DNA of 64,000 nt from an uncultured Candidatus Saccharibacteria bacterium (GTDB lineage: Bacteria; Patescibacteriota; Minisyncoccia; Phycocordibacterales; JACNGX01). The notes beneath the pieces were generated by a model that was not told where the DNA came from, searched no databases, and was given only the letters and a program-made list of their open reading frames with translations. Each line of letters begins with the position of its first letter. Within the stretch, counting starts at the first letter, position 1. The DNA lies in the NCBI GenBank assembly GCA_964621395.1, contig CAZULS010000002.1, positions 170,252 to 234,251 of the forward strand. The letters are read 5' to 3'. Position numbers and translations under genes: made by a program. This document shows positions 25,377 to 52,869 of this stretch, piece after piece.

Positions 25377-25541
25377 GAGTGAGAAAATGAAATACGTATT
25401 CAGCATATTGGCTGGATGCTCCATTGGACTTAGTGTCTTTGGTGGAGTTGACGCATCGCTCGCGAGTGGTGTTCTGGCAATGGGAGTCGCTAGTTGTCTT
25501 ATGACAATTAGCGTCATCATTGACGATGCTGTCGAAAAGCT
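25377..25541 (+). CDS. small hypothetical membrane protein (54 aa)
   Basis: RBS AAAGGAGTGAG 7 nt before the ATG. MKYVFSILAGCSIGLSVFGG... is hydrophobic. It is shorter than the ORF-track cutoff. Confidence 0.4.
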
Positions 25542-25831
25542 GAAAAAGTAAAGAGGAGGGGGAGGGTCAAGAATCTGCTCTCAGCCCTTGAAACGGCGTC
25601 TTCTTACAGGCGCCGTTAGTTTTTAGATAGCCGGTATTACGTCCAGCTTTTTCTTCTGTCTCGCAAATGACGGTGTACACTAGTATGCTGTCATCCCGCA
25701 CTTGATGCGGGATCCAGGCAGAAACAAAGTGGTTCATAAACTCTGGATTCCGGCTCGGGGGCCGGAATGACAAAATATTATGGAGATTCTGAAAGACAAC
25801 GTTGGGATAACGTTGTCCCAACGTTGTCTGG

Positions 25832-25868
25832 AAAAAGCGCGGCGACCGAAGGTCGCCGCGCTTTTTAG
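25832..25868. terminator. bidirectional Rho-independent terminator (aaaaagcgcggcgacc gaag ggtcgccgcgcttttt)
   Basis: A perfect 11-bp GC stem flanked by an A5 run and a T5 run. It is downstream of the minus-strand ychF. Confidence 0.7.
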
Positions 25869-25930
25869 TTTATCGTTTACCGTTATTCGTTTTATTATTT
25901 TTAACGTTTAACATTTAATCTCCTATTCTC

Positions 25931-27031
25931 CTAGATCTTAAACTCCACCACATCCCCGTCCTTCACCACATACTCCTTCCCTTCTGTGCGCAGGAGACCT
26001 TTCTCACGAGCAGCTGCATATGAACCGCTTTCAAGAAGTGTGTCGGAGTGGATCACTTCAGCGCGGATGAATCTATCACGAAAATCGCTGTGGATGGCGG
26101 CACCCGCTTCCGGTGCGGTGGAATGATAGCTCACCGTCCATGCGCGTGTCTCGTCGGCTCCTGTGGTGAAATATGTCATAAGACCAAGGAGTGCATATGC
26201 TCCGCGAATTAAATCATTGACCCCGTCGTCGCTTCCCGCTCCCAGCTCTTCACGAAACATGCTCTTCTCCTCCCCTTCCAAACTTGAAAGTTCATGCTCA
26301 ATACCGGCGTCGACAATCACATGCTGAGCGCCATTATCGGTAAGAAATTGCATCAGTGCTTCATATCGTGGATCTTCGGGTGTGTCGGAGAGATTGGTTG
26401 CGCCCGCTTTCGTATTGAGCACATAGAGCATCGGTTTTGCGGAAATAAAATTAAGATGTTTGACCGCCTCACGATCTTCCTTTGAAAGATCGATAATTGC
26501 CGCACGTTTTCCGGCATCAAATCCTTCCAGAAGTTTTTTGATTGCTTGCTCTTCGAGCTGGGCACTTTTGTCGCCACGTTTGAGTTCACTTGCAAGGCTA
26601 CCGAGACGCTTTTCCGCGCTTGCCATGTCAGCGAGAATAAGCTCCATGTTGATGGTTTCGATATCGCGCACCGGATTAATGGAACCATCGACATGAGTGA
26701 CATTGCCATCCTCAAACATACGCACCACATGCGCAATAGCGTTCACCTCGCGGATATGTGAGAGGAATTGATTGCCCAAACCCTCCCCTTCTGCCGCACC
26801 TTTCACAAGTCCTGCGATATCCACGAATTCAATCGCGGCAGGAATGGTTTTTGCTGATTGCGAGAACAGAGAGAGTTTCCCCAAGCGTTCGTCAGGCACA
26901 GCAACAACACCGACCGACGGATCGATGGTACAAAACGGAAAATTCTCCGCAGGAACGGATTTTTTCGTGAGCGCATTAAAGAGTGTTGACTTACCAACAT
27001 TCGGCAGTCCGACGATTCCGATAGAGAGCAT
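25931..27031 (-). CDS. ychF: ribosome-binding ATPase YchF (Obg-family GTPase)
   Basis: G1 is GLPNVGKSTLFNALT. The C-terminal TGS domain is present (EGKEYVVKDGDVVEFKI). Confidence 0.9.
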   Translation of the reverse strand: MLSIGIVGLPNVGKSTLFNALTKKSVPAENFPFCTIDPSVGVVAVPDERLGKLSLFSQSAKTIPAAIEFVDIAGLVKGAAEGEGLGNQFLSHIREVNAIAHVVRMFEDGNVTHVDGSINPVRDIETINMELILADMASAEKRLGSLASELKRGDKSAQLEEQAIKKLLEGFDAGKRAAIIDLSKEDREAVKHLNFISAKPMLYVLNTKAGATNLSDTPEDPRYEALMQFLTDNGAQHVIVDAGIEHELSSLEGEEKSMFREELGAGSDDGVNDLIRGAYALLGLMTYFTTGADETRAWTVSYHSTAPEAGAAIHSDFRDRFIRAEVIHSDTLLESGSYAAAREKGLLRTEGKEYVVKDGDVVEFKI

Positions 27032-32996: not shown

Positions 32997-33155
32997 GAAT
33001 TACGAATGTACAAATCACTACAAATCTACAAATGGTACGAATAATACGAATGACGAATCGGATATTTGCTGTCATCCCGCACTTGATGCGGGATCTTCAT
33101 TATATGACCACTCTGCGAAATTTTTTCCATACCAAGGTTTAACCTTGGTATGGCA

Positions 33156-41779: not shown

Positions 41780-43099
41780 TTATTGAGGAGTGGTAGGAAT
41801 AACCACATCCGCACAATTAAATCCATCATTATTACGCTGCTGTTCCGCATACGCAACAAATTCAGAAATAACCTTGTCCGTCTGTGCTATGTCACCCATA
41901 CCACTTCCACTACAAGTAATGGGATCTGAATCACCGGTGTTTTGAGGACCGGTCTGCGTACCTGCACACCAATCAAAGCCAATAAGACTTACCGGCGTGT
42001 TCGGAAGAAGCGGCATAGCAATCATGTTTTGTTGAATTTGATCGAATGAAGTTCCTGCCGGAACATACACCGTCTCAGAAACATCATACATATTGTTTGC
42101 ATTCGCATCACCCCAAACGAAGAATTCAAGTTCTCCGGAGAGTTCACCCACAGCGTCAGTCGTGTCGTTGGCTTCAATTTCCGGATCAATACGAGTATTT
42201 TCATCGTCGACGATATTGTGCGGGAAGAGACATGAATATGCCTCGTTGCCATACACATGAAGTGAGATAATGCTCTTGCCCCAGTCACCCGGCTTCACAT
42301 CGTTGAAGTTCCAAAATGTTTCGCCGCTCAAGTCTGTTTCACTCCAAAGAGTACACGTACCCCCATAAGTGTATGTGTCATCACAATCAAGTGTTACAAG
42401 AGATATATCGTCAAGATATCCTCCGAGAGTGTCTTGCTGTGAACCGGCATCTGTGAAGCTCACGGTGGTTTGTGCATCAAGAGCGACAAAGTCGTAGGTG
42501 TACTCTTTCCACACTGTACCAGAACCACTATACGAAGGCTGTCCAATGACATCGTTCACCATGACACCGCTTGTTGATGTCACAAGAACACCAAGTTCAA
42601 TTGCATTGTCGGTGTCGGGACCATTGTTCGGTCGCGGTGAGTGGTAGAAAGTGAGACGGTATTGCTGACCGGGCACAGTATCAACCACCTGTTCAATTCC
42701 CGAGGCGCTATCACCGGGAGTATGGCTGTCGAGTTCAGCAAGCTGATTTCCACTATGTGGTGCACCAGCAGCATTATTCTGGATTTCAAGGCCTGCAGAA
42801 CCGCCGGTTACGTCCCAACTCGTGAGTGAGCCGTCGGGATACACAGCCCATTGTCCATTGCCAAGCGCCGGCGTTTCGAATCCGCCGTTTACAATAAGTT
42901 CCGTGTCTCCCTCAACACAGTTATTACACACTTCGCCATTGTACTCAGCGTATGTGTGGTCTACCTTCAAATCAACAGAACCCGCCGTGAAGACATTGCC
43001 TGTGGACGTTTCCGTGTCGTTGTAGAACGCCACCGTAGCGCCTGCGACAACCACACCGACAAGAGCGATAGTCGCAATTCCTGTAAATAATCTGTTCAT
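41780..43099 (-). CDS. SipW-cognate TasA/camelysin-like secreted protein
   Basis: 439 aa. Signal peptide, then ATVAFYNDTETSTGNVFTAGSVDLKVD, the hallmark N-terminal motif of the TasA/CalY (peptidase M73-like) SipW substrates. Confidence 0.75.
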   Translation of the reverse strand: MNRLFTGIATIALVGVVVAGATVAFYNDTETSTGNVFTAGSVDLKVDHTYAEYNGEVCNNCVEGDTELIVNGGFETPALGNGQWAVYPDGSLTSWDVTGGSAGLEIQNNAAGAPHSGNQLAELDSHTPGDSASGIEQVVDTVPGQQYRLTFYHSPRPNNGPDTDNAIELGVLVTSTSGVMVNDVIGQPSYSGSGTVWKEYTYDFVALDAQTTVSFTDAGSQQDTLGGYLDDISLVTLDCDDTYTYGGTCTLWSETDLSGETFWNFNDVKPGDWGKSIISLHVYGNEAYSCLFPHNIVDDENTRIDPEIEANDTTDAVGELSGELEFFVWGDANANNMYDVSETVYVPAGTSFDQIQQNMIAMPLLPNTPVSLIGFDWCAGTQTGPQNTGDSDPITCSGSGMGDIAQTDKVISEFVAYAEQQRNNDGFNCADVVIPTTPQ

Positions 43100-43172
43100 G
43101 TTTTAGGAAGTTAGCTTGCAGCTGATAGCTTTTAGGGTCGTGTGCTCACGCACACTCTTTCTCTCTGTCATC

Positions 43173-43240
43173 CCGTACTCTTGCCGAGCACTTTTTTCGC
43201 TTTAGCGAAAATGGTGCTTGGTGATACAGAATCTTCGTAG
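43173..43240. repeat. family-5 nested palindrome (about 68 bp), copy 1 (inverted relative to copies 2 and 3)
   Basis: tgtcatcccgtactcttgccgagcacttttttcgctttagcgaaaatggtgcttggtgatacagaatc. Copies are at 45690-45757 and 52315-52384. Confidence 0.65.
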
Positions 43241-43386
43241 ATCCTGAATCAAGTTCAGGATAACGAGTTTATCGTTTACCGTTTATAGTTTATCGTTTAC
43301 AAAATCAGCCACACCCAACTCATTTATCTGTCAAAACCCCGAAGGGCAACACCACAATCGCTCACGCGATTGTGGTGTTTGAAAGA

Positions 43387-44802
43387 TTAGTCAACTTGAA
43401 CCAAGAGACCAAACTGTTCTCCCCCGCTTCCCGTGGGAGTTGTTGACCATGTCGCTGTAACTTGACCTGTAAGAGTGAAGCCATCAGCAAGCTGAGTGTC
43501 GCCACTAATGACAAGAGAGCCCTTATCACCTGCTCCTGATGCAGAAGTTGAATCAGGACCGACAGGACTCATGCCGTCAAGTTGAACATTTGCCAGTACG
43601 AGTGATGCGTCGGGAGCATCTGAATTAACCTTCAAAGTAAGACCAAGGTTAGAGCCATCAACTGCCGGAACCGTAGTCACAGCGTTTACAGACTTATCAC
43701 CAACAGTAAACGTTGCATTGCCTGCACCATCGTACGTCAGAGTGAAGTCTTCTGTCACACCGCTACGCCACAAACCTGTTGCGTTATCAGTATGTGTCTG
43801 TGCGATTGGACTACCTCCTCCCGGAAGTCCAATGCGAATTTCGTTTTGTGCAGCAGTTGTTCCTCCGTCACCATAGCGTGCATCTGCTTGCCATGATTCA
43901 TCAAACGAACCCACAGAACTTGCCCATGTTTCGCCTTCCACGGAGGTGATATCGCGAGGGTTCATGCTTGAACACACGAAGTCTCCATTGTTACGTGACT
44001 GTACAGCGTAGAATTCTACATCCACTTCCATACCATCGGTTTGGGTGAGGTTGGTAGTGTTTGCACCGCTACAAGTGAAACCGGTACCACGATCGAGCGG
44101 ACCGTTCTGCCCGGTCTTTCCCTCGTTGTCCTGGGTGACAGCGGCTTCTGCCATGTCACCAAGACACCAGTATTTTGCAATGTAGTGTACCGGCTCATTG
44201 TTGTCACCACCGGCGATGGGACCGCCCGTCTGTGTCCATACATTGTATTGGGAGTCTGCGAGTGCAATGTAACTGCCGTCAAAGAGAGTTGCAGCAGAAC
44301 CTTGTCCCATGAAGATGTATTCACCACCATCGGGACCCTCATACACATTGTCACCATCGTCGTTCCAGAATGCGAATTGGAGCTCGTCCTGAAGCTCGCC
44401 GTCAGTTTCTACGGCACAGGAGTCGTCTACTTCACCTTCCGGCTCTGTACATTCATTGTCTGGTGTCGCCGTGATATCAATCGCCATACATGCATACGCA
44501 TCATTGTTGTTGACATGAATGGAGATGGTGTCTTCACCGCGGTCACCTGGCTTGATGTCGAGGAAATTGAAGAAAAGACCCATGTCCTCATCAATACCCC
44601 AGGACGTAGCAGGGCTTGCCACCAAGTCACCGTCCATGTTGGTGACATAGCTTTCATTGTCGATCTTGAGATCAATCGCGCCGGCGGTGAATGTGTTGCC
44701 GGTTGATGTCTCCGTGTCGGAGAAGAATGCGCCTGTTGCGCCTGCGACTGCAACGCCCGCAAACACAAGCATCGCAATACTCATAAAGAGTTGTTTGTTC
44801 AT
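43387..44802 (-). CDS. SipW-cognate TasA/camelysin-like secreted protein
   Basis: 471 aa. ATGAFFSDTETSTGNTFTAGAIDLKIDNES after the signal peptide. Confidence 0.75.
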   Translation of the reverse strand: MNKQLFMSIAMLVFAGVAVAGATGAFFSDTETSTGNTFTAGAIDLKIDNESYVTNMDGDLVASPATSWGIDEDMGLFFNFLDIKPGDRGEDTISIHVNNNDAYACMAIDITATPDNECTEPEGEVDDSCAVETDGELQDELQFAFWNDDGDNVYEGPDGGEYIFMGQGSAATLFDGSYIALADSQYNVWTQTGGPIAGGDNNEPVHYIAKYWCLGDMAEAAVTQDNEGKTGQNGPLDRGTGFTCSGANTTNLTQTDGMEVDVEFYAVQSRNNGDFVCSSMNPRDITSVEGETWASSVGSFDESWQADARYGDGGTTAAQNEIRIGLPGGGSPIAQTHTDNATGLWRSGVTEDFTLTYDGAGNATFTVGDKSVNAVTTVPAVDGSNLGLTLKVNSDAPDASLVLANVQLDGMSPVGPDSTSASGAGDKGSLVISGDTQLADGFTLTGQVTATWSTTPTGSGGEQFGLLVQVD

Positions 44803-45689
44803 AAATAATCAGTAGAACAGTAATCAGTATGTCGGGATATGAGTATGTATAGAGGATAAAAAAAGTTATCCACAGTTCTTTCCAAAGGTTTAACCTTTGG
44901 AAAACAATATATCTATTCCGACATATCCGAATACTGCAATGAATAAACGAATAAGAAGTATATTTTGAGCGGAGCACAAAAAAACTCTCCACCCGAAATA
45001 CGCTTACAAAGCTGATAAAAAGTGAAAGAGCCAAAGGATCTATGCTGCTATTATATTTTTGTGAGCGCGCGGAAAGTGTTTGTACGTTCGCTGTATTTCG
45101 CACTCGGTAGAACCGAAGACATTCGCCTCGACTCGACCGAGCACGAACATATGGATGTGTTCGCGCACCACATGTTCTCAATTCAAAGTAATGTTTTTCA
45201 GTATCCGAATCGTTTCTCCCCTGCACATAATTGTACTCCTCAGAGAAAAGTGATTCAAATGAAAATAAAGTTGGGAAAGGAAACGGACGGTTCGTCAATC
45301 TCCATGTGACGAAGGATTGAGACGGTATGCCTGACATTGCGTGTCGCGGGTTACCCGACCGCTTGTGTTTTGGCACTGTCTTGAACCGCCTGTATCTTCC
45401 TTCCCCAACATTAAAAAAGAGTCTACTTCCCATACTCTACCCCTCCCGCATATTGTCAAGACCCAAAACAAAGCCCAACATGTCCTTTATGATGTGTCAA
45501 TCTGTTGCCTAAAGGACACCCAAAAAACCCTGCAAAAGAAAGCCCAAAATCCCCTGTCCCTTACATGTCCGATAGAACATATCAAAATACAAAAATAAAA
45601 TATCAAACAAAAACGTAATCCGAAATCTCGCAGACAAAACCAAAGACTATCTTTGGTATGCATACCAAAGATAGTCTTTGGTTTTGTAA

Positions 45690-45757
45690 GATCCCGCATC
45701 ACCAAGCGCCATTTTCACTAAAGTGAAAAAAGTGCTCGGCAAGAGTGCGGGATGACA
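45690..45757. repeat. family-5 nested palindrome, copy 2
   Basis: gatcccgcatcaccaagcgccattttcactaaagtgaaaaaagtgctcggcaagagtgcgggatgaca. Confidence 0.65.
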
Positions 45758-45855
45758 AGCGGCGCGGTCCTTTAGGACCGCGCCGCTTGTCTTTCTGTCA
45801 CGAGTCTCGTGCCAAGGCTTAACCTTGGTCAACCACAAAACATTAGATTGTCAAG

Positions 45856-45890
45856 CAAAAGGGCGGCTCCGAAGGAGCCGCCCTTTTTGC
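45856..45890. terminator. bidirectional Rho-independent terminator (caaaagggcggctcc gaag gagccgccctttttg)
   Basis: A perfect 10-bp GC stem with a GAAG loop, flanked by A and T runs, just 3' of the Fic gene. Confidence 0.7.
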
Positions 45891-45901
45891 TTTGCGGTAA
45901 C

Positions 45902-46774
45902 TCATTCCCCGATTTTCCACTCTCCCTTTTCAAGAAATGCTTCAATCGTTTGCCGCTTTGCCTTATTGAGCAGATTGGAATGTGAAAGTTTACGTTTCTT
46001 TGCATACTCTTTCAATGAGACAATCTGTTTCCCCTCAAGATAGGCAAGCCGTTTATGGTAACTGCGCGCAAGCGCCCGAGCAACGATTTCTTCCATGGGT
46101 TTTGTTTCTTTTTTGGTGTCAAATGCTTTGAACGCATCATAATAGAGAGCACGGTTTTCAAAAGCGATATTTATCGGTACATATCCTTCGCGAATAAAAA
46201 GGTAGTTGTTGAGCACACGTCCGATACGTCCGTTTCCGTCAACAAATGGATGAATACGTTCAAACGTAAGATGAAGTCGCGCAACGCGCTTTACAATATG
46301 TTCGTTTGTGCGCGCGTGATATGTCGCGAGCATGTCGGTTATCAGTGTTTCAATATCTTTCGGATCTGCACCGATATGCGACCCAACGCGTACCCATTCC
46401 CCTTCCGCACGAAATCTGCCGGCAATATCATCACGAATATTGCTGATAAGCATGCGATGGAGAAGAAGTATCATGTCCGTTGAAAGCTCGCTTTCTTTCG
46501 CCTTCCCTTCCATATATTCAACGACACGCGCAAGGTTTTTCGCTTCAAAAATTTCTCGTTCATTCACAAAACGCTCCAAATCAATCTGGAGAAGAATCTT
46601 TTCAGTCTCTTCAAGAGTGAGTGTACTGTTTTCAATCGCATTTGAGTTGTACACATGCTCGGGAACTTCCGCGGCATTGATTGTTGCAATGAGAGACTCT
46701 TTCCCCGGGAGTGCTGCATAATACCGCTCCCTAAGAGATTGAATTGCTGAAAATGTGTGAGATTTTCGTGGCAT
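45902..46774 (-). CDS. Fic/Doc-family protein (putative AMPylase)
   Basis: 290 aa. Canonical Fic motif HPFVDGNGRIGR (HPFx[DE]GNGR). Confidence 0.85.
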   Translation of the reverse strand: MPRKSHTFSAIQSLRERYYAALPGKESLIATINAAEVPEHVYNSNAIENSTLTLEETEKILLQIDLERFVNEREIFEAKNLARVVEYMEGKAKESELSTDMILLLHRMLISNIRDDIAGRFRAEGEWVRVGSHIGADPKDIETLITDMLATYHARTNEHIVKRVARLHLTFERIHPFVDGNGRIGRVLNNYLFIREGYVPINIAFENRALYYDAFKAFDTKKETKPMEEIVARALARSYHKRLAYLEGKQIVSLKEYAKKRKLSHSNLLNKAKRQTIEAFLEKGEWKIGE

Positions 46775-47031
46775 ATACCGTATATTATAGTCTTTTTCAC
46801 GATTATGTCAATAATAATCGTGAAAAAACACGTTTTTTACCACTTTTTAACGATTATTTTTCTGATATTTTCTGTACCAAGGTTGAACCTTGGTACACCA
46901 CATAATATCAAGCTGTCAAGCAAAAGGACGGCTCCTTCGGAGCCGCCCTACGCGCCCTTGACTTTTCACTGCAGAAAGTCCATCCTTGTGAAAGATTGAC
47001 TTTGATAAAAAACACTTCAAAGGAGGCGATA

Positions 47032-47496
47032 ATGAATATCAATGCTCTTGAATTTTCTCCCGGTGTTCTCAGAGGCAGATTGGGCAACATTATCAGTGTT
47101 GTTGCAGCATGTGAAAAAGCCAAAGAATACGCGGCGAAGCATGGAAGACGCGCGTATAACGACAGAGACCCGTTGTTGTACGAATCATTCATGCCGTTTA
47201 CCCCGCAAGTTGTCGGTAGCTATTATTTTTTCCCGAAAGATGAAGATATTGTGAAATTCGCGCATATCCTCGTACGTGAACTCGAAAGTGATCTCGGATT
47301 GATTGATTTCCGTAAAAGAAAAGAGGTCATGCAGGCGAATCACCTCGTTGCATGGCGCGCCGATGCGCCGGCGAACAATCACCTGACGTTCTTGGTACAA
47401 ATGTATGACGGAGTCGGTACTAATGGTAATCTCGGCATTGCCATCGGCATCGCGCATAAAAGTGTCGTTTACGATCTCGCGCATCATACGAATTGA
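47032..47496 (+). CDS. hypothetical protein
   Basis: RBS AAAGGAGG 6 nt upstream of ATG 47032 and a TTGACT -35-like box upstream. 154 aa with no recognisable family. A hairpin plus T-run terminator is at 47510-47540. Confidence 0.5.
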   Translation: MNINALEFSPGVLRGRLGNIISVVAACEKAKEYAAKHGRRAYNDRDPLLYESFMPFTPQVVGSYYFFPKDEDIVKFAHILVRELESDLGLIDFRKRKEVMQANHLVAWRADAPANNHLTFLVQMYDGVGTNGNLGIAIGIAHKSVVYDLAHHTN

Positions 47497-47621
47497 TATG
47501 CACCTACTTCCCCGCTCCTTCGCCGGAGCGGTTTTTTCTTGACAATTTTAGACGGGACATATACCCTTTACAAGGTTTTCAAAAAGCACTATTTTCTTTC
47601 ACAAAAACAAAGCAAGCTATG

Positions 47622-48110
47622 AGTAAAGAAACAAACCTCCTTCTTCTGCACCTGTTTGCGCCGAAGGAAAAACAGGGTGAAAGTGTCAATCAATATGATG
47701 GGCTTCCATCCGCTTCTGCGGTATTTCTCCCCGCGTCCGAGAATGTGGGCGAAATACTTGAAGACGCATCGGTGTGGGAAATTCAGACATGTCTCGCGGG
47801 AGACCGCGGTCTCGGCATGTTTTGCAACGACGTGTCCGCGTACGCCCATCACCGCATGCACGTTGCCGGCAAAGTTGCACCGCACAAAAAACGTATCCTC
47901 CTCGGCGCGCCGGACAACAAGCGCGGATGGATGGTACTCTACACGGCGGAAGAGCCGGTGCCCCAGACCGTTGCGTACCTCAACCAGCTGGTCATGGTAT
48001 GGGGATGCAACAGCGGAAAGATGTATCTCAAAACACTCGTTCCCCGGCAGGAATTTGATGGCGGACTGTTCACGCCCGCCATACCGTTCCTCAAAGTTCC
48101 TTCTTTGTGA
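47622..48110 (+). CDS. hypothetical protein
   Basis: 162 aa. It has its own TTGACA box (47544) and a terminator hairpin (48118-48150). No family recognised. Confidence 0.45.
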   Translation, partial: SKETNLLLLHLFAPKEKQGESVNQYDGLPSASAVFLPASENVGEILEDASVWEIQTCLAGDRGLGMFCNDVSAYAHHRMHVAGKVAPHKKRILLGAPDNKRGWMVLYTAEEPVPQTVAYLNQLVMVWGCNSGKMYLKTLVPRQEFDGGLFTPAIPFLKVPSL

Positions 48111-48210
48111 CAAGTTCCCCTCCCGATCATCCGACTATCGGGAGGTTTTTTCTTGACAACCGCTCCCACTTCGTGCATGATTGGCGCAGAACATACAACA
48201 ACAATCAAAT

Positions 48211-48732
48211 ATGGAGTCTCTTATGGAACACGAACGCATCGTACGCTCCGGTGCCGGTCATGTCATGCTTTTGCATAAGCCATCCGACATGGAGATATGT
48301 TTTAACTTTATCTTCACTCTTTCCAAAGAAATGAGTGAAGAAAACGCCCGAGGTCTGTTCCGGTATTTTTCACCACACGCGATGATCGAAGAAGGGCAGG
48401 CGGTATTTTTCGGATTACAGGAAGAATATGTGCCGGATGTAATGGTGCCCCGCGTATTTTCCCCCGAACCTATCCCTTCTCGCCTCATTATTCAGACAAT
48501 GGACGCTTTGGGAGGAGAAACGGAACACCTTTTCACTTTCAAGGAAGACGGCGAAAAAGATATTGCTGCAACATTTGTAGAGCACGCAAATTTTCTCAAT
48601 ATGGGCGAAATCCCACAGCACAGTATTTCTTCCCTTTTCGGGAATACAAATATACTGGGTGTGTGGAAACCGACACCAAGGTTTATCTCCCTTGTAGAGA
48701 TAAAAATTATTGGTGTTGCAGAAGAAAAATAA
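48211..48732 (+). CDS. hypothetical protein
   Basis: 173 aa. A TTGACA box at 48154. No family recognised. Confidence 0.45.
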   Translation: MESLMEHERIVRSGAGHVMLLHKPSDMEICFNFIFTLSKEMSEENARGLFRYFSPHAMIEEGQAVFFGLQEEYVPDVMVPRVFSPEPIPSRLIIQTMDALGGETEHLFTFKEDGEKDIAATFVEHANFLNMGEIPQHSISSLFGNTNILGVWKPTPRFISLVEIKIIGVAEEK

Positions 48733-48833
48733 CGAGCGGCCCCGAACACGGGCCGTTTTTACTTGCGTAATTTTTGCATGTATGGTATTGTGTAAGCCGT
48801 TTTGTTTTTTGCAACCGCCAAAAGAATACAACT

Positions 48834-49364
48834 ATGAGTACAAGTCAGAGAGAGCCGGAGAAAATCTTTAACATCAAATTTTCCTCAATATCCATGAGGG
48901 ATCTTCGGAGGGAAGCTGAAAAATATGCAGAAGAAGTAGCAGAAAAAGTAGACGAGAAAGTCCCTATACCAGATAAATTGAAAGATATTATTGTCGTGGG
49001 GACAACCGCTCTCCCTCATTTTGACAGAGAAAAAGAAGACGAGAGAAGTATGCAGAAGATTCTCAGAAGAAACCTCAGGGCGTATTTTTCTGCTCTCAAT
49101 TTGTCAATGAATGGCGCTGGGATACTTTTCTTTGAAGAGAAGCATAATCACGATACTCTTGAACAATCAAAAGGGTTCTTTACTGCGTACGCTTCCGCAG
49201 GTGACCATGTGGTCATCTGGGCAGATCTTTTCAAACGATTTGATGCCAGGGTTTATCATGTTCGCCTTGGCCTTGCCTGGAAACCGGTTATGGAAGCCTG
49301 GAAGCTATCAGCGGAAGGTTTACTTGCAGAAGAAAGAGAAAGAGTCGTAAAAGATTTGGTGTAG
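48834..49364 (+). CDS. hypothetical protein
   Basis: 176 aa. The N-terminal half is charged and helical. No family recognised. Confidence 0.45.
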   Translation: MSTSQREPEKIFNIKFSSISMRDLRREAEKYAEEVAEKVDEKVPIPDKLKDIIVVGTTALPHFDREKEDERSMQKILRRNLRAYFSALNLSMNGAGILFFEEKHNHDTLEQSKGFFTAYASAGDHVVIWADLFKRFDARVYHVRLGLAWKPVMEAWKLSAEGLLAEERERVVKDLV

Positions 49365-49453
49365 GGAGATTGGTTACCTCTCTGCATCTTGCAGCGCGGT
49401 CCGTCAGTACCTTGTGGTACGGGGCCGCTTTTTTATGCATAAAGCACGAAGTA

Positions 49454-49481
49454 TTGACAAAAGTATGCTTTTGTGTATAAT
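49454..49481 (+). promoter_or_regulatory. consensus sigma-70-type promoter TTGACA-16nt-TATAAT
   Basis: ttgacaaaagtatgcttttgtgtataat read directly, about 55 nt upstream of ATG 49536. Confidence 0.5.
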
Positions 49482-49535
49482 ACTATTCAGAGTTTTTAGA
49501 CACAATTTTCGCAAAACCTTATCCAAGGGGGACTT

Positions 49536-49751
49536 ATGCGGATGGGAAAAATCACAGTCGTTGCCGCTCTTCTTGTGGCAGCATTCTTTGTCTCTTTCAG
49601 GGCTGGTGTCGTCATACATCAGCTCCCGATTGAGTGGGGTGTACAGCCGGGAGACTGGCTCATGATCACTCCAATCGCTTTTATGGGGGTGGTTATGCTC
49701 TTTGTAGCATACCATCTCATCGCAAAAGCGATAAAAATAATCGGCAATTAG
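49536..49751 (+). CDS. small hypothetical membrane protein (71 aa, 2 TM)
   Basis: MRMGKITVVAALLVAAFFVSF ... ITPIAFMGVVMLFVAYHLIA. Driven by the consensus promoter above. Confidence 0.5.
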   Translation: MRMGKITVVAALLVAAFFVSFRAGVVIHQLPIEWGVQPGDWLMITPIAFMGVVMLFVAYHLIAKAIKIIGN

Positions 49752-50052
49752 CCGAGAACACCGGAGCGTACAGCAGTATTGTACGACTCCGGTTTGTTGT
49801 TTCCGCGGCCGAGCATCCTTATACCAAGGTTCAACCTTGGTATAAGGATGCTATTATGATTATAGCCTTATATTACAATGGTTTTATACTTACCTATACC
49901 AAGGTTGAACCTTGGTATAGATACTTGTGTCAAGAGAAAGCGCGGCGTATGCCGCGCTTTCTATTTCTATCTCCTATAGCTTTTATCGTTAATAGTTCAG
50001 CGTTTTACTGTGGCCGAGCATGCTCGCCATGCTTTAGGCCCGTTCACCAAGA

Positions 50053-50229
50053 TTATTTCTTCCAATCTTCGATGATGAGCCTAGTTCCCTCCTGGCGGAC
50101 GGTGACCTTCTGTTTTTCTCGCCATTTGAGATTACGGACCATTTCTATCGGAAGTGTGACAGCAATACTTCCATTTCCTATTTTTAATAATTTGCGCGTA
50201 TTTCGTTCTCCGAGAGTTTTACGTGGCAT
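50053..50229 (-). CDS. AbrB/MazE/SpoVT-family DNA-binding protein (58 aa)
   Basis: MPRKTLGERNTRKLLKIGNGSIAVTLPIEMVRNLKWREKQKVTVRQEGTRLIIE is the swapped-hairpin beta-barrel signature (KIGNGSIAVTLP). An AT-rich multi-palindrome lies immediately upstream (50231-50285). Confidence 0.6.
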   Translation of the reverse strand: MPRKTLGERNTRKLLKIGNGSIAVTLPIEMVRNLKWREKQKVTVRQEGTRLIIEDWKK

Positions 50230-50422
50230 ATACGTGAGAAAATTAATTAATAAATTATATAATTTATTATATAATAAATTAATTAATTTTTTTATCCACA
50301 CATAATACTTTTCTTCTTTTTTATCATTTCAACCTCTCCGAGTCGGAATAGTGCGGGATGACAAGATGGGTAGTACACAAAAACACCCCCTTTAGGGGTG
50401 TTTTTGTGACTAATGGTCAGTG

Positions 50423-50460
50423 TGGACCCGACTGGGTTCGAACCAGCGACCTCCTGATTG
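50423..50460 (-). pseudogene. tRNA-Ala 3'-half fragment (anticodon-loop position 36 to discriminator)
   Basis: 38 nt identical to the 3' half of the intact tRNA-Ala at 50526-50599. Identity ends exactly at the anticodon loop (..cctgattg|). Confidence 0.7.
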
Positions 50461-50525
50461 TACCGAAAAGCAAGAAGTGGAACGGCTATGCTTTTCATAT
50501 CCCGTAAAAATGATAATGGTCAGTG

Positions 50526-50599
50526 TGGACCCGACTGGGTTCGAACCAGCGACCTCCTGATTGCAAAACAGGTGCTCTAGCCAACTGAGCTACGGGCCC
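50526..50599 (-). tRNA. tRNA-Ala (anticodon UGC)
   Basis: A manual cloverleaf folds with acceptor GGGCCCG/CGGGUCC, the G3:U70 Ala identity pair, a D-arm GCUC-AGUUGGCUA-GAGC, anticodon loop UUUGCAA, T-arm GCUGG-UUCGAAC-CCAGU and discriminator A. CCA is not encoded. Confidence 0.85.
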
Positions 50600-50688
50600 A
50601 CACTACTCACTATAAGGATATGGTACGGACAAAAGGACTTACTCGGGATCTCGAAAAATATATTCGCTTTGCTCATTATTTTTCGGGA

Positions 50689-50724
50689 CAAAACAGGTGC
50701 TCTAGCCAACTGAGCTACAGGCCC
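50689..50724 (-). pseudogene. tRNA-Ala 5'-half fragment (position 1 to anticodon position 35), 1 mismatch
   Basis: 36 nt matching the 5' half of the intact tRNA (gggcctgtagctcagttggctagagcacctgttttg). It ends at the same anticodon-loop junction as the 3'-half fragment. Confidence 0.7.
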
Positions 50725-51294
50725 AAGTGAGGAATATTATATAGAACACACCAAAAAAAGCAAGGGATTTTGGGTGTTAATTGAATAAAAAACCACCTCA
50801 ATCATAGAGGTGGTATGGAAATCGGGAACAAATTTTCGCACGAACGGCGACATTCCCTCACGGATACGTATTTTTTCTTCTCCATTCTCGTTCTTTCTCT
50901 GCGTATTGCTTCCTGTTCCTCGGCCATCGCCTTTGCTTTTTTATACTGACGACAAAGAGTAAATGGGAACAAATGTAATCCATCATCCTCGAAAAGCCCA
51001 ATGCCTTTTTCAGCATACTTCATAAAGGAATTATGGGCATATTTCTCTGCTGCTTTCAAAAAATGCAGGTACATATTACCCGTTGATAGAAAAGAAAAAA
51101 CCGGTTCGGGGGAAAGAATGACGCGCTTCAGTAAGAACAACGATATCCTCTTCGCACCCTTTTCCGCGCATCGACAAGAAAGAGAAAAAAGGATATGGCG
51201 TTTGTATGCTCTGTATATTTCTCTCAAACCGAAAGAAATAAGAGAGCATGTGGTCAAAAAAGATTGTCTGTTCATAGCACACTCCTTTTTGTTT

Positions 51295-51729
51295 TTAAGC
51301 AAAACCGAATATTTGTCTTTCGAAAGTCTGAACAAACTTCTCATTGACAACCGCTTTACGCAGAAGCGCAATAAGAATTTCGTTCAAGGTTTCCGAAGCA
51401 CACGAAAAGTCCGACAAGGACCCTTCTGCCACCCCTTCCACTCGCTCACGCAATTCTAGAAAAGCTTCAACGCTTTTCCCGACACACGGACCTTTTTTCA
51501 ACTCTGCAAGAAGCGAGCTGAAGAAGAGATCTCCGTGATTGATGAGAATTAACCCATTCTTTCTTTGCAGTATGTCAATCCATGTCATCCCTTCAAGCAG
51601 TTCTACAAACCGCTTCTCGTCGGCGGGGGTCATTGCGGTTTTTGAAGGCGTGGCGACACTTTTTCTTCCTTGGTCGTCTCTCAGCAGTGTTTTTTTGCTC
51701 ATTTCCCAAAATTCTTTTGAAGTTACCAA
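51295..51729 (-). CDS. hypothetical protein
   Basis: 144 aa. The translation is protein-like, and there is a divergent promoter region at 51730-51810. No family recognised. Confidence 0.4.
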   Translation of the reverse strand: MVTSKEFWEMSKKTLLRDDQGRKSVATPSKTAMTPADEKRFVELLEGMTWIDILQRKNGLILINHGDLFFSSLLAELKKGPCVGKSVEAFLELRERVEGVAEGSLSDFSCASETLNEILIALLRKAVVNEKFVQTFERQIFGFA

Positions 51730-51816
51730 AAATTCCAGATTTCACCATACCATACACTCATTTTGTTTGTCAAATGCTTGTGTTGAAAAGATGTGTATGG
51801 GATGTATAATGATTGT

Positions 51817-52290
51817 ATGAGTAACCGCTATGAAATGCCAAACGAGGTAGAAGTAATGGTGCCTGAAAAGGCCATTCATAAAGTGGCACAGATTTATACT
51901 GAGCATCTCATGCAGCCAGGTAACGCTGAAGCACTTATTTCCGAGGCGCTTGAGCGTATTGGACGTAAAGAGAAGAACACTATTAATGCCAATGAGGTTC
52001 GCATTGCGGCACTGGAACGTGTTGCTGAAGATAACGGCGGTGTATTACCTGAAGGTTCACTGCGTGATTTGTATAAAGAAAAAGTTATTGAAGAAATTAC
52101 GGAGATAATGTGTGCTGAGCCGTACGATCCCACTGATCCTGAGAGAGTTGTAGAGTATTACAACAAGCCACAACAGCTTCTTATTGCACATGAGCCATTT
52201 CGGGTAATGTTTTCCGGTGAGATAAATAAGATTACGAAGGATATTTTAGGAGATGAACGTCTTGCGTTCAACATTGCTGAGACGGGATAA
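51817..52290 (+). CDS. hypothetical protein (alternative start ATG 51856 with GAGGT RBS)
   Basis: A TTGAAA-16-TATAAT promoter at 51783-51810 sits inside the ORF-track start (51793), so the true start must be downstream. No family recognised. Confidence 0.45.
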   Translation: MSNRYEMPNEVEVMVPEKAIHKVAQIYTEHLMQPGNAEALISEALERIGRKEKNTINANEVRIAALERVAEDNGGVLPEGSLRDLYKEKVIEEITEIMCAEPYDPTDPERVVEYYNKPQQLLIAHEPFRVMFSGEINKITKDILGDERLAFNIAETG

Positions 52291-52314
52291 CTAACGGTTC
52301 TAGATTCCGAAGCT

Positions 52315-52384
52315 GGATCCTGAATCACCAAGTACCATTTTCACTAAAGCGAAAAAAGTGCTCGGCACGAGTTCAGGATGACGA
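52315..52384. repeat. family-5 nested palindrome, copy 3
   Basis: ggatcctgaatcaccaagtaccattttcactaaagcgaaaaaagtgctcggcacgagttcaggatgacg. Confidence 0.65.
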
Positions 52385-52434: not shown

Positions 52435-52869
52435 CTATGTAAGCGGTTTGATGTCGAATTCGTCTGTACTTCCCTCTTTGAGATATGCGAAATAGAGGAG
52501 TACTTCGACACCGGGAAATGTTTCTTCGACGATTTTCTTTGCCTCCTCAAGGTCTTTGGTGTGCTGAGTAAGTTCTCGTTCTCTAGCTTCGAAATCCATT
52601 GCTTCATAAGCGCCGCAGTCTTCATGATTCAGCAGAATGATTTTTGTGACAGAATGTTTTTTCACCGATACGGTGAGGTCGCGAATCACTGCATCTTTAA
52701 ATCCTTCACTCTGCGGGCGGACGAGATCCTGGATTGCCCCACCGCGAGTGATGAGGTCGCATTCACCGCCGAGCTCTTTAATAAAATCTGCGACATAATT
52801 GCGTCCATCTCCTCTTTGATGAAGGCGGAAGTCTTCACAGGTAATAAGTGCGTGTGTGCAAGTGTGCAT
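52435..52869 (-). CDS. beta-carbonic-anhydrase-like protein (short)
   Basis: The Zn-ligand-like motifs CEDFR (Cx[DE]xR) and HEDCGA (HxxCG) have the spacing of beta-class carbonic anhydrases. At 144 aa it is shorter than typical beta-CAs. Confidence 0.4.
   Translation of the reverse strand: MHTCTHALITCEDFRLHQRGDGRNYVADFIKELGGECDLITRGGAIQDLVRPQSEGFKDAVIRDLTVSVKKHSVTKIILLNHEDCGAYEAMDFEARERELTQHTKDLEEAKKIVEETFPGVEVLLYFAYLKEGSTDEFDIKPLT

What the first reader, a model, noticed from the sequence alone, without database searches (positions are those of the whole stretch)
44803..50300. Island-like accessory segment: 840-bp gene-free gap, Fic protein, AbrB/MazE-like regulator and five orphan genes each with its own promoter and terminator
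After the TasA-like gene there is about 840 bp (44803-45640) with no credible ORF and an unusual A/C-rich composition. Then come a Fic/Doc protein (HPFVDGNGRIGR) flanked by strong bidirectional terminators, four consecutive plus-strand orphan genes of about 150-175 aa, a 71-aa membrane protein behind a consensus TTGACA-16-TATAAT promoter, and a minus-strand AbrB/MazE-like gene whose upstream region (50231-50285) is a stack of perfect AT palindromes (attaattaat, aaattatataattt, aatttattatataataaatt). Each plus-strand orphan has a hairpin plus T-run just upstream of a TTGACA box. This is unlike the operonic organisation elsewhere in the window. None of the orphans matched a family I recognise.
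Basis: partly seen in the sequence, partly recalled or inferred. Interest (0 to 1): 0.5.

Follow-up and report, generated by a model that had tools for sequence, protein, structure and literature searches.

The report
Gene-turnover zone beside a scarred tRNA-Ala
This stretch of a Patescibacteria (CPR) chromosome is a patch of fast gene turnover, not a discrete mobile island: it holds a movable self-regulated Fic enzyme gene, four lineage-only genes of unknown function that are really under selection, a conserved small AbrB-type regulator and many hairpin repeats, which is interesting but fairly ordinary for these genomes.

Summary
The described features are real. The window is a Patescibacteria chromosome. 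Fic (45902-46774, -) is a class II, self-inhibited Fic. It has its own conserved three-site operator and promoter. Homologues that are 72-83% identical sit in at least five unrelated contexts in other CPR genomes. Here Fic lies between 76-nt direct repeats, and two related genomes lack it at this position. Orphans A-D are real genes: dN/dS is 0.06-0.37 at dS of about 1. They keep their order and their terminator-promoter junctions in four related metagenomic populations. No homologue was found outside that lineage. AbrB (91-97% identical) next to tRNA-Ala is also conserved. Composition and codon usage are normal. No integrase or transposase occurs anywhere in the 64 kb. The tRNA half-copies bracket only a 228-bp insert, not the segment. 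Gene turnover also affects E, X and F, so it extends to about 52.4 kb. My verdict is a repeat-rich plasticity zone holding one movable Fic cassette and a lineage-specific orphan block. It is not a discrete acquired island. The function of A-D remains unknown. Interest is modest.

The parts
44803..45640 (.). Non-coding spacer upstream of the TasA-like gene. It contains one REP-like palindrome (44879-44903). Its last 240 nt (45401-45640) form a G-poor, C/A-rich tract on the + strand.
   Evidence: No Pfam hit for any gap ORF. No gene is called there in the identical contig L124. Base composition per 100 nt is. The region folds better than shuffles on both strands, z = -5.0 and -5.9. No Rfam family matches.
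45634..45687 (.). Perfect palindrome with 27-nt arms, made of two inverted copies of a REP-like unit (ACCAAAGAnTAnTCTTTGGT). It looks like a terminator on both strands.
   Evidence: (I3). Independent Logan assemblies break exactly here (L124 ends at 45663).
45688..45757 (.). 70-nt structured hairpin repeat ('REP2'). Other full copies lie at 43166-43235 (-) and 52316-52382 (+). Fragments lie at 50347-50365, 43252-43277 and about 33070.
   Evidence: Folding z-scores range from -3.5 to -6.7. Three base pairs show compensatory changes among the three copies.
45754..45791 (+). GC-rich hairpin (17 pairs) followed by a T-rich tail. It looks like a terminator for a + strand transcript coming from the gap.
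   Evidence: (I13).
45809..45884 (-). 76-nt repeat unit, copy 1. Read on the minus strand it runs: Fic terminator hairpin, TTTTGC, TTGACA, 16-17 nt, REP-like palindrome.
   Evidence: D2, 80% identical to copy 2.
45902..46774 (-). Class II Fic protein, 290 aa. It has the N-terminal inhibitory motif SNAIEN, the active site HPFVDGNGRIGR, and a conserved C-terminal region that looks like a helix-turn-helix.
   Evidence: Pfam Fic 2.8e-21. The best PDB match is FICD, with SNAIEN aligned to TVAIEG. PADLOC SoFic 2.7e-29 and PDC-S04 2.2e-35. All these motifs are invariant in 13 homologues.
46775..46857 (-). Fic promoter and operator. The -35 TTGACA is at 46811-46806 and the -10 TATAAT at 46789-46784, 9 nt before the ATG, so the mRNA is nearly leaderless. 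Three copies of ATAATCGTGAAAAA lie at 46793-46806, 46814-46827 and 46843-46857.
   Evidence: 12/12 promoter match. The operator architecture is conserved in L136, L142, L143, L147 and L152 despite unrelated flanks.
46874..46949 (-). 76-nt repeat unit, copy 2. L122 has a single copy of this unit at the homologous position (L122 734-808).
47032..47496 (+). Orphan A, 154 aa, with a strong Shine-Dalgarno sequence (AAGGAGG).
   Evidence: 88% identical to the L122 copy, dN/dS 0.06. A full HMMER scan of 1.84 billion representatives found only one real homologue, P0012 at 80%.
47619..48110 (+). Orphan B, 163 aa, with conserved Cys and His residues.
   Evidence: Homologues at 88%, 79% and 60% identity, all from the same narrow lineage. 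dN/dS is 0.06. The AlphaFold model was unusable, pLDDT 33.
48211..48732 (+). Orphan C, 173 aa. The likely true start is 48223 (169 aa), because relatives start at MEH.
   Evidence: 74%, 71% and 33% identity to relatives. dN/dS is 0.13.
48834..49364 (+). Orphan D, 176 aa. This family evolves fast and has two D-like genes side by side in L127 (sequence-level homology about 19% identity, not statistically confirmed).
   Evidence: 51% identity to L122 and about 19-20% to the L127 and L135 members, with shared motifs. dN/dS is 0.37.
49454..49751 (+). Consensus promoter (49454-49481) plus E, a 71-aa protein with two hydrophobic stretches (49536-49751). E is not conserved: L122 has an unrelated 35-aa hydrophobic ORF at the same place.
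49820..49962 (.). Two REP-like palindromes (49820-49844 and 49895-49919), then a hairpin (49935-49962). They lie between the convergent genes E and AbrB.
50053..50229 (-). Solitary AbrB/SpoVT-MazE-type DNA-binding protein, 58 aa.
   Evidence: PF04014 1.1e-5. 97% identical in L122 and 91% in L127, dN/dS 0.03. No toxin gene is adjacent.
50239..50295 (.). Stack of AT-only palindromes upstream of AbrB. This is the presumed promoter and auto-operator.
   Evidence: I5, I8, I24. It is almost identical in L127 and shorter in L122.
50411..50725 (-). Nested tRNA-Ala locus. It consists of an outer 3' half (50411-50460), a 53-nt spacer, an intact tRNA-Ala(TGC) (50525-50599), an 88-nt spacer and an outer 5' half (50689-50725). 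In other words, a 228-bp insert that carries a whole tRNA-Ala sits exactly in the anticodon of an older tRNA-Ala.
   Evidence: (D4, D5).
50802..52382 (.). Continuation of the variable zone. X (50802-51278, -) is conserved in L082 but replaced in L122. F (51295-51729, -) is absent from L082 and L122. G (51802-52290, +) is conserved. A REP2 copy lies at 52316-52382, where L082 has an extra 113-aa gene.

Best explanation
The segment is part of a repeat-rich plasticity zone of about 7.6 kb (roughly 44.8-52.4 kb) in a Patescibacteria chromosome. It lies between a TasA/camelysin-like surface-protein cluster and the conserved gene H + ATP-synthase operon. It is a mosaic of three kinds of DNA.

**1. 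A self-contained Fic cassette.** It comprises its own sigma-70-type promoter, a three-site operator and a nearly leaderless class II Fic gene. The enzyme carries its own inhibitory helix (S-x-x-x-E-N), so it needs no separate antitoxin. I infer that its C-terminal helix-turn-helix-like region binds the ATAATCGTGAAAAA repeats and represses its own promoter. I also infer that, like its SoFic and PDC-S04 relatives, it acts as a stress- or phage-triggered AMP-transferase. The cassette changes location between CPR genomes. Here it sits between two copies of a 76-nt terminator/promoter/palindrome unit. It most likely arrived, or was lost in relatives, by recombination at such repeats.

**2. A lineage-specific core.** This is the four orphan genes A-D plus a solitary AbrB-type regulator next to tRNA-Ala. 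It is inherited vertically within a narrow lineage. Each gene is insulated by a conserved terminator followed directly by a promoter, so each is transcribed on its own. Their biochemical function is unknown. My best guess is cytoplasmic proteins involved in lineage-specific host or phage interaction.

**3. Expendable small genes (E, X, F) and two families of hairpin repeats.** I infer that the repeats serve as terminators and as recombination substrates that drive the turnover.

**Shown versus inferred.** Shown: gene content, conservation, selection, repeat structure, variable contexts, absence of mobility genes. Inferred: Fic autoregulation and defence role, repeat-mediated recombination, and any role for A-D.
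For: **Organism.** AtpD best matches are 72-81% identical, to Falkowbacteria, Magasanikbacteria and other Patescibacteria MAGs. Housekeeping genes fill the window.

**Fic.**
- Family membership and class II motif.
- Hits to defence-related profiles.
- More than 100 clusters at 72-83% identity across Patescibacteria.
- Five unrelated contexts. These are this locus, inside an hsdR-fic-hsdM type I RM operon, after truB, next to MazG/SLFN/RecQ, and after rplB in the same sample that holds an A-B-C-D contig.
- DNA similarity extends only 50-85 nt upstream of the gene and stops at its end.
- The triple operator is conserved everywhere, and in L152 all three sites carry the same base change.
- 76-nt direct repeats flank Fic here, while L122 has one copy and no Fic. 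L127 also lacks Fic.

**Core block.**
- Collinear in L122/L123, L127-133, L134 and L135.
- dS is about 1, with dN/dS 0.03-0.37.
- The B|C and C|D hairpin + T-run + -35 junctions are conserved, with compensatory stem changes.

**Normal composition**.

**No mobility genes**.

**Turnover of E, X and F**.

**Repeats.** The palindrome family gives 20 strand matches against 0.18 expected. It has 16 sites in the window, 7 of them in 44.8-50 kb. REP2 shows covariation.
Against: - All relatives that carry the block are short metagenomic contigs (under 5 kb), so the borders of conservation are not seen.
- The nearest genome with a longer view (L082, gene H 85% identical) has no tRNA-Ala, AbrB or A-D next to X. 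That is also what an island present or absent as a unit would look like.
- A 16-nt exact direct repeat (45741-45759 and 50347-50365) brackets Fic to AbrB. It could be read as att sites. I attribute it to two REP2 copies.
- High Fic identity across CPR could reflect strong constraint rather than transfer.
- No experiment or structure supports Fic autoregulation, its defence role, or any function for A-D.
- The 840-bp gap remains unexplained.
Confidence: 0.55

Rival explanations
1. A discrete, horizontally acquired genomic island integrated at tRNA-Ala. It would run from the hairpin element at about 45.7 kb to about 50.4 kb and carry Fic, A-E and AbrB as cargo.
For: - It lies next to a tRNA-Ala that has duplicated halves, which are classic integration scars.
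- 16-nt exact direct repeats lie at 45741-45759 and 50347-50365 (D6).
- The cargo has no homologues outside a narrow lineage.
- L082 lacks the block next to X.
- Assemblies break at both ends.
Against: - No integrase, transposase or relaxase is present in 64 kb.
- GC, GC3 and codon-usage distance are within the spread of other small genes.
- A-D/AbrB/tRNA order is kept at dS of about 1 under purifying selection.
- The tRNA halves enclose only 228 bp, and the block lies outside them.
- The 16-nt repeats belong to a dispersed hairpin family that has other copies nearby.
- Fic varies independently of A-D.
Confidence: 0.12
2. An ordinary, vertically inherited core region of this lineage. It would merely look odd because CPR genomes are full of unannotated small genes, and nothing in it would be accessory.
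For: Conserved order, purifying selection and normal composition. Gene H and the atp operon are syntenic in many relatives.
Against: - Fic is present here but absent in L122 and L127, and it sits at other sites elsewhere.
- E, X and F differ between genomes of similar divergence.
- The tRNA insert is polymorphic.
- Synteny beyond gene H is lost in all more distant relatives.
Confidence: 0.2
3. A dispersed toxin-antitoxin or immunity system. Fic (a Doc-like toxin) would be neutralised by the AbrB/MazE-type protein, or by one or more of the orphans acting as immunity proteins.
For: Fic/Doc and AbrB/MazE-fold antidotes are known partners. The AbrB protein gives a weak hit to TIGR02609 'doc_partner' (E=0.007, below cut-off). 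Both genes begin MPRK and share a 20-nt 5' stretch (D11).
Against: - The two genes are 3.3 kb apart with five genes between them, and each is transcribed from its own promoter.
- AbrB and A-D are conserved in L122 and L127, whose contigs show no Fic.
- Fic homologues elsewhere have neither AbrB nor A-D beside them.
- Fic carries its own inhibitory helix.
Confidence: 0.05
4. A decayed prophage or other degraded mobile element whose mobility and structural genes have been lost.
For: Fic and AbrB hit PHROG families. The region holds many orphans, strong promoters, a tRNA neighbour and a gene-free gap that could be decayed DNA.
Against: - No PHROG hit below E=0.01 for A-E, F or G (B has one weak hit, E=0.025).
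- No phage structural, replication or lysis genes are present.
- The orphans are under purifying selection and are not decaying.
- The palindrome and the two conserved spacer stretches of the tRNA insert are essentially absent from 2.9 million viral contigs.
Confidence: 0.03

Closest known systems
Class II Fic AMP-transferases (human FICD/HYPE type) and the single-gene SoFic / PDC-S04 defence candidates
   Same: - It has the Fic fold signature HPFxDGNGRxxR.
- It has an N-terminal inhibitory motif (S/T)xxxE(G/N), aligned to that of FICD.
- It scores strongly against the PADLOC SoFic and PDC-S04 profiles.
- It is a single stand-alone gene.
- A close homologue (80% identical) is embedded in a type I restriction-modification operon.
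   Different: - It scores far below NCBIfam's SoFic equivalog cut-off (40 bits against 550), so it is a separate clade.
- It is restricted to Patescibacteria at unusually high identity.
- It carries a conserved three-site operator and a nearly leaderless start.
- No activity or defence phenotype is known for it.
tRNA-targeted integrative genomic islands
   Same: It lies next to a tRNA gene that has duplicated tRNA fragments. It has accessory-looking cargo and gene content that varies between relatives.
   Different: - There is no integrase.
- The tRNA-derived repeats bracket 228 bp, not the cargo.
- Composition is normal.
- Most of the cargo is collinear in diverged relatives.
REP/BIME-type repetitive extragenic palindromes
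   Same: These are short imperfect palindromes confined to intergenic DNA, often in inverted pairs. Arm changes are compensated, and many copies sit at gene ends where they can act as terminators.
   Different: The sequences are unrelated to enterobacterial REPs. No RAYT-type transposase is seen in the 64 kb. Some copies are fused to a -35 box and terminator, forming a 76-nt unit.
AbrB/SpoVT-MazE swapped-hairpin DNA-binding proteins
   Same: It matches the Pfam MazE_antitoxin/SpoVT-AbrB domain. It is small (58 aa) and has an AT-rich palindromic upstream region suited to self-regulation.
   Different: It has no adjacent toxin gene. It is highly conserved and fixed next to tRNA-Ala in relatives, so it behaves as a stand-alone regulator rather than an antitoxin.
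Defence islands / genomic plasticity zones (regions of genome plasticity)
   Same: It shows clustered gene gain, loss and replacement at one chromosomal spot. It contains a defence-type gene, and relatives carry a different two-gene module at the same position.
   Different: Only one gene (Fic) has any defence annotation. Most of the zone consists of conserved lineage-specific orphans.

Membership tests
Fic family, class II (intramolecular inhibition) | Catalytic motif HxFx(D/E)GNGRxxR | tested here: met
   HPFVDGNGRIGR is present. Pfam Fic 2.8e-21. The motif is invariant in 13 homologues.
Fic family, class II (intramolecular inhibition) | Inhibitory helix motif (S/T)xxxE(G/N) located N-terminal to the Fic core in the same polypeptide | tested here: met
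   S44-N-A-I-E48-N49 aligns with T-V-A-I-E-G of FICD and is invariant in homologues. The class definition itself comes from established knowledge of Fic proteins.
Fic family, class II (intramolecular inhibition) | AMP-transfer (or related) activity released by mutating the inhibitory Glu | not testable with these tools
   Needs biochemistry.
SoFic single-gene anti-phage defence | Sequence membership of the SoFic family | tested here: inconclusive
   PADLOC SoFic profile 2.7e-29 over residues 21-278. However, the NCBIfam SoFic equivalog gives only 40 bits against a cut-off of 550.
SoFic single-gene anti-phage defence | Protection against phage | not testable with these tools
   Context is only suggestive: an 80%-identical homologue lies inside a type I RM operon.
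tRNA-integrated genomic island | Integrase or recombinase gene at one end | tested here: not met
   No such domain in any ORF scanned across the 64 kb (all those of at least 90 aa, plus the short ORFs of the segment).
tRNA-integrated genomic island | Direct repeats derived from the tRNA that flank the island | tested here: not met
   tRNA half-copies occur only at 50411-50460 and 50689-50725, and they bracket 228 bp. The segment lies outside them.
tRNA-integrated genomic island | Deviant base composition or codon usage | tested here: not met
   Gene GC is 0.42-0.55 against 0.468±0.033 for other small genes. Codon-usage distance is 0.35-0.48 against 0.38±0.09 for genes of comparable length.
tRNA-integrated genomic island | Presence or absence as a unit among close relatives | tested here: inconclusive
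   A-D/AbrB are retained in L122, L127 and L135. Fic varies on its own. L082 lacks the block next to X, but that contig is only 3.9 kb.
Type II toxin-antitoxin pair (Doc/Fic toxin + AbrB-fold antidote) | Adjacent, co-transcribed toxin and antitoxin genes | tested here: not met
   The genes are 3.3 kb apart with separate promoters and five genes between them. AbrB is conserved in contigs that show no Fic.
AbrB/SpoVT-MazE domain proteins | SpoVT-AbrB swapped-hairpin domain | tested here: met
   PF04014, 25.7 bits against a cut-off of 24.7, E=1.1e-5.
REP-type extragenic palindromes | Multi-copy imperfect palindromes restricted to intergenic DNA | tested here: met
   Ten sites within 3 mismatches (20 strand matches against 0.18 expected). 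There are 16 sites when variants are included. All are intergenic.
REP-type extragenic palindromes | Cognate RAYT (IS200/IS605-like) transposase in the genome | tested here: inconclusive
   None is present in the 64-kb window. The rest of the genome was not available.

The most novel reading that the evidence does not exclude
Two linked readings remain open.

(a) The Fic cassette (three-site operator, leaderless class II Fic with a DNA-binding tail) is an autonomous single-gene defence module. It would spread among Patescibacteria without any recombinase of its own, by recombination at hairpin repeats.

(b) A-B-C-D plus AbrB form a previously unknown functional module of this lineage. Each gene would be deliberately insulated by a conserved terminator-promoter junction. 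The module could, for example, act in host interaction or as an anti-phage or anti-defence set.

Separately, the 228-bp insert bounded by 9-nt terminal inverted repeats may be a new kind of tRNA-targeting mini-element. It splits tRNA-Ala in the anticodon while carrying a replacement tRNA-Ala.
Probability: 0.12. Interest if true: 0.6.

Novelty: new member of a known kind. Interest (0 to 1): 0.3.

Why it matters
CPR/Patescibacteria genomes are small, and a large share of their genes have no known function. This locus gives a concrete, well-bounded example of how such genomes vary.

- A single defence-type Fic gene travels with its own regulatory DNA.
- Small orphan genes are swapped at a repeat-rich spot.
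- A block of four orphan families is clearly maintained by selection.
- The conserved Fic operator offers a directly testable case of Fic autoregulation.
- The four orphan families are good targets for structure determination.

None of this overturns current ideas. The value is descriptive, plus a few testable leads.

Tried and rejected
1. **Concatenated A-E query.** One homology search with A-E joined together returned nothing, not even the proteins themselves. A later single-protein search worked. One search was therefore a technical failure and not evidence of absence.
2. **Apparent distant homologue of A.** P0013 (2093 aa, 18 matched stretches, E=1e-27) is a translated tandem satellite repeat. 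I rejected it as an artefact.
3. **A-D as diverged paralogues.** BLASTP gave no hits. The four profile-profile pairs tested (A-C, A-D, B-C, B-D) gave probabilities of 0.2% or less.
4. **Sequence search of the four profiles against PDB.** Nothing scored below E=0.5.
5. **AlphaFold2 of B with its three-sequence alignment.** Mean pLDDT was 32.8, so I ran no fold search.
6. **Rfam.** Both gathering and permissive thresholds gave only tRNA-Ala. The other hits are generic hairpins.
7. **Gap as a hidden or recoded gene.** No Pfam hits. Reading through TGA or TAG does not produce a convincing ORF.
8. **tRNA-derived att repeats further away.** None found.
9. **Viral contigs.** The palindrome gave one chance hit. 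The two conserved spacer stretches of the tRNA insert gave none.
10. **Long terminal inverted repeats in the tRNA insert.** The local alignment is not significant (51 of 1000 shuffles score as well). Only the terminal 9 nt match.
11. **HicAB-like reading of the two-gene module that replaces Fic in L122 and L127.** No Pfam support, so I dropped it.
12. **Synteny from 80 GTDB genomes via AtpD and 40 metagenome loci via gene H.** Relatives are too distant. Synteny ends at gene H in all except L082.

Full report
**What is there.**

The window is a bacterial chromosome. It carries LeuRS, CysRS, DnaB, RecR, an F1Fo ATP-synthase operon and similar genes. Its AtpD is at best 72-81% identical to MAGs labelled Falkowbacteria, Magasanikbacteria, Saccharibacteria or 'Patescibacteria group'. 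The organism is therefore a CPR/Patescibacteria bacterium with no close representative in the genome collection.

- TasA/camelysin-like genes at 41780-43099 and 43387-44802.
- A gene-free stretch.
- Fic at 45902-46774 (-).
- Four plus-strand genes: A 47032-47496, B 47619-48110, C 48211/48223-48732 and D 48834-49364.
- A 71-aa protein E with two hydrophobic stretches, 49536-49751.
- An AbrB/MazE-type gene at 50053-50229 (-).

Pfam confirms Fic (2.8e-21) and the SpoVT-AbrB/MazE domain (1.1e-5). It finds nothing for A-E. NCBIfam and PADLOC also give nothing below E=0.09, and PHROGs only one weak hit for B (E=0.025).

The two perfect TTGACA-16-TATAAT promoters (upstream of Fic and of E), the AT palindromes at 50239-50295 and the hairpin + T-run + -35 arrangement before B, C, D and E are all present. 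Promoter-like sites number 25 against 13.5±3.5 expected in 44-52 kb. Two control regions give 14 and 7, both near expectation. Terminator-like sites exceed expectation in all three regions.

**The gap.**

No gap ORF has a family hit. The gene calls stored for the identical contig L124 include none there. Alternative stop-codon readings do not rescue a gene. GC is 40.8%, like other intergenic DNA at 42.6%.

Only 45401-45640 is truly A/C-rich, with G at 10-11% and 14 CCC against 0 GGG. That tract is followed on the + strand by two strong hairpins with T-rich tails, at 45634-45687 and 45754-45791. A small C-rich RNA is therefore possible but untested. The region folds better than shuffles on both strands because it is full of local palindromes. 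No Rfam family matches.

**Are the orphans real, and how widely are they found?**

B has three related clusters (88%, 79% and 60% identity). All come from short metagenomic contigs, one of them annotated as a Parcubacteria-group MAG. A full HMMER scan of 1.84 billion representatives with A found one true relative (80%) and one artefact, a translated satellite repeat.

The contigs that carry these relatives show the same order:
- L122/L123 carry A-B-C-D-(small ORF)-AbrB-tRNA-Ala.
- L127-133 carry B-C-D-like-D-like-AbrB-tRNA-Ala.
- L134 carries B-C.
- L135 carries A-B-C-D-like.

Against L122, synonymous divergence is about 1. dN/dS is 0.06 for A, 0.06 for B, 0.13 for C, 0.37 for D and 0.03 for AbrB. 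These are therefore genuine proteins under purifying selection.

The intergenic junctions are conserved too. The B|C hairpin (CCTCCCGAT...ATCGGGAGG) + T-run + TTGACAA is kept across relatives. So is the C|D hairpin + TTTTT + TTGCG-N17-TATGGTA, and its stems show compensatory changes. This supports independent transcription of each gene.

A-D show no similarity to one another by BLASTP, nor in the four profile-profile pairs tested. They are also not similar to any PDB sequence. An AlphaFold2 model of B was unusable, with pLDDT 33. Their function stays unknown.

**Fic.**

The best solved relative is human FICD. The alignment places SNAIEN of this protein on the inhibitory TVAIEG of FICD. That motif, the active site and a C-terminal helix-turn-helix-like stretch are invariant in 13 homologues. 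It scores 2.7e-29 on PADLOC's SoFic profile and 2.2e-35 on PDC-S04, but it is far below NCBIfam's SoFic equivalog cut-off.

More than 100 clusters at 72-83% identity exist, and those with names are Patescibacteria such as Uhrbacteria and Paceibacterota. That is as conserved as AtpD is between this genome and its nearest relatives. Their contexts are unrelated to each other:
- Inside an hsdR-fic-hsdM-...-hsdS operon (80% identical homologue).
- After truB, among small orphans.
- Beside MazG/SLFN/RecQ and a Gp49-HTH pair.
- After rplB, in the same JGI sample that yielded the A-B-C-D contig L135.

DNA similarity to the window covers the ORF plus 50-85 nt upstream and stops at the stop codon. The shared upstream piece holds ATAATCGTGAAAAA three times (forward, inverted, forward) around the -35 box. 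A TATAAT lies 9 nt before the ATG in three of four loci. The same triple arrangement is found in L136, L143, L147 and L152, and less perfectly in L142. In L152 all three sites carry the same G-to-T change. I infer autoregulation by the Fic C-terminal region.

In the window, Fic lies between two 80%-identical 76-nt units, each made of a terminator hairpin, TTGACA and a palindrome (D2). L122 has one such unit and no Fic. It carries a pair of overlapping small genes on the other side of the unit instead, as does L127. Fic is thus a cassette gained or lost independently of A-D.

**Is it an island?**

- **Composition.** It is unremarkable. Gene GC is 0.42-0.55 against 0.468±0.033 for other small genes, and codon-usage distance is within their spread.
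- **Mobility genes.** No integrase, transposase or relaxase domain occurs anywhere in the window.
- **tRNA-derived repeats.** The tRNA-Ala(TGC) at 50525-50599 has an exact 50-nt copy of its 3' half at 50411-50460. It also has a 97% copy of its 5' half at 50689-50725, and the two break exactly in the anticodon. Comparison shows what happened. L122 has a plain tRNA-Ala with the same outer flanks. The window and L127 share a 228-bp insert (spacer, whole tRNA-Ala, spacer) in the anticodon of the older gene, and in L127 the outer halves are decaying. So the tRNA-derived repeats bracket 228 bp, and AbrB to Fic lies outside them. No further tRNA fragment exists in the window.
- **The 16-nt direct repeat.** The copies at 45741-45759 and 50347-50365 do bracket Fic to AbrB. 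They are ends of a dispersed 70-nt hairpin repeat with other copies at 43.2, 52.3 and 33.1 kb. I read them as repeat copies, not att sites.

**The wider zone.**

Gene H (52435-52869, Pro_CA_2-like) follows atpC in several relatives, and synteny stops there. The closest longer contig, L082 (H 85% identical), has H, an extra 113-aa gene, G, X, and then unrelated genes. It has no tRNA-Ala or AbrB at that point. F is missing in L082 and L122, and X is replaced by another gene in L122. E is replaced in L122 by an unrelated 35-aa hydrophobic ORF. Turnover therefore affects about 44.8-52.4 kb gene by gene.

Two repeat families populate the zone:
- **Palindromes of the type TACCAAGGTTnAACCTTGGTA.** Ten sites lie within 3 mismatches, giving 20 strand matches against 0.18 expected. 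There are 16 sites when variants are counted, and 7 of them lie in 44.8-50 kb.
- **The 70-nt hairpin.** Three of its base pairs change in a compensatory way among three copies.

Independent assemblies break at these repeats.

**Conclusion.**

The best reading is a repeat-rich plasticity zone with three components:
- One movable, self-regulated, defence-type Fic cassette.
- A lineage-specific but vertically kept block, A-D + AbrB + tRNA-Ala.
- Expendable small genes.

It is not a discrete integrated island. The mechanism of turnover (recombination at repeats), Fic autoregulation and its defence role, and any function for A-D are inferences.

I rate it a new member of a known kind, with modest interest.

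Noticed in passing
window 50411-50725 (also L127 3925-4231; L122 3992-4067): tRNA-Ala(TGC) is split exactly in its anticodon by a 228-bp insert that carries a complete second tRNA-Ala. The insert ends in a 9-nt inverted repeat (TCCCGAAAA...TTTTCGGGA), exact in L127 and 8 of 9 in the window. There is no target duplication. The insert is shared by the window and L127 but absent from L122, which is the closer relative. In L127 the outer halves are decaying, while in the window the outer 3' half is 100% identical to the inner one. I have no mechanism for this. The two conserved spacer stretches tested are absent from viral contigs.
   Followed up: partly
window 126, 151, 24316, 24341, 33131, 33682, 33707, 36222, 36253, 44881, 45639, 45664, 45812, 46876, 49823, 49898: A genome-wide family of intergenic palindromes (core CCAARG...CYTTGG, often TATACCAAGGTTnAACCTTGGTATA). 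They frequently occur as inverted pairs about 25-30 nt apart, and changes in the arms are compensated. The family is also present in L122 but essentially absent from 2.9 million viral contigs. It may be REP-like, or a binding site for a dimeric protein.
   Followed up: partly
window 43166-43235 (-), 45688-45757 (+), 52316-52382 (+); fragments at 50347-50365, 43252-43277 and about 33050-33080: A 70-nt hairpin repeat with three compensatory base-pair changes among three copies. A short form (GATCCCGCA-TCAAG-TGCGGGATGAC) occurs at about 33.07 kb and in L122. It matches no Rfam family.
   Followed up: partly
window 46784-46857; L136 4918-4982; L143 4909-4976; L147 1361-1429; L152 210-275: The Fic genes of this CPR clade carry a conserved three-site operator (ATAATCGTGAAAAA: forward, inverted, forward) that overlaps a consensus promoter. 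The ATG lies 9 nt after the -10 box, so the mRNA is nearly leaderless. In L152 all three sites share the same G-to-T change.
   Followed up: yes
window 45401-45791 (+): A 240-nt G-poor, CCC-rich tract (including CCTCC) is followed by two strong hairpins with T-rich tails, and no ORF lies upstream. This is a candidate small RNA. No homologous sequence was available to test conservation.
   Followed up: partly
window 46759-46778 and 50214-50233: Fic and AbrB both begin MPRK(S/T) and share a 20-nt stretch across the start codon (90% identical). Neither has a visible Shine-Dalgarno sequence. This may be chance or a shared translation-start feature.
   Followed up: no
L122 2-518 (-) and L127 339-1008 (-): Where the window has Fic, both relatives have two overlapping small genes (56/101 aa and 123/128 aa). 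The architecture is toxin-antitoxin-like, but neither gene has a Pfam hit.
   Followed up: partly
window 49536-49751 and L122 3323-3430: Unrelated small hydrophobic ORFs (71 aa and 35 aa) occupy the same position in the two genomes. The window's copy sits behind a perfect consensus promoter. A type I toxin-like peptide is conceivable.
   Followed up: no
window 51295-51729 (-) and 50802-51278 (-): F has no counterpart in L082 or L122. X is conserved in L082 (71% aa identity, dN/dS 0.05) but replaced by an unrelated 161-aa gene in L122.
   Followed up: partly
contig ends: L001 = window 45713-50289; L124 ends at 45663; L122, L127 and L135 are all under 5 kb: Independent metagenome assemblies of this locus all break at the hairpin repeats. 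This explains why no relative gives a long view of the region.
   Followed up: no
window 20825-24238 (-): The LeuRS gene encodes 1137 aa and matches the 843-position bacterial LeuRS model in three separate stretches. It appears to carry large insertions, as also seen in the L015 comparison.
   Followed up: no
window 25258-25931: A second gene-free stretch of about 670 bp lies elsewhere in the window, so large intergenic gaps are not unique to the finding.
   Followed up: no
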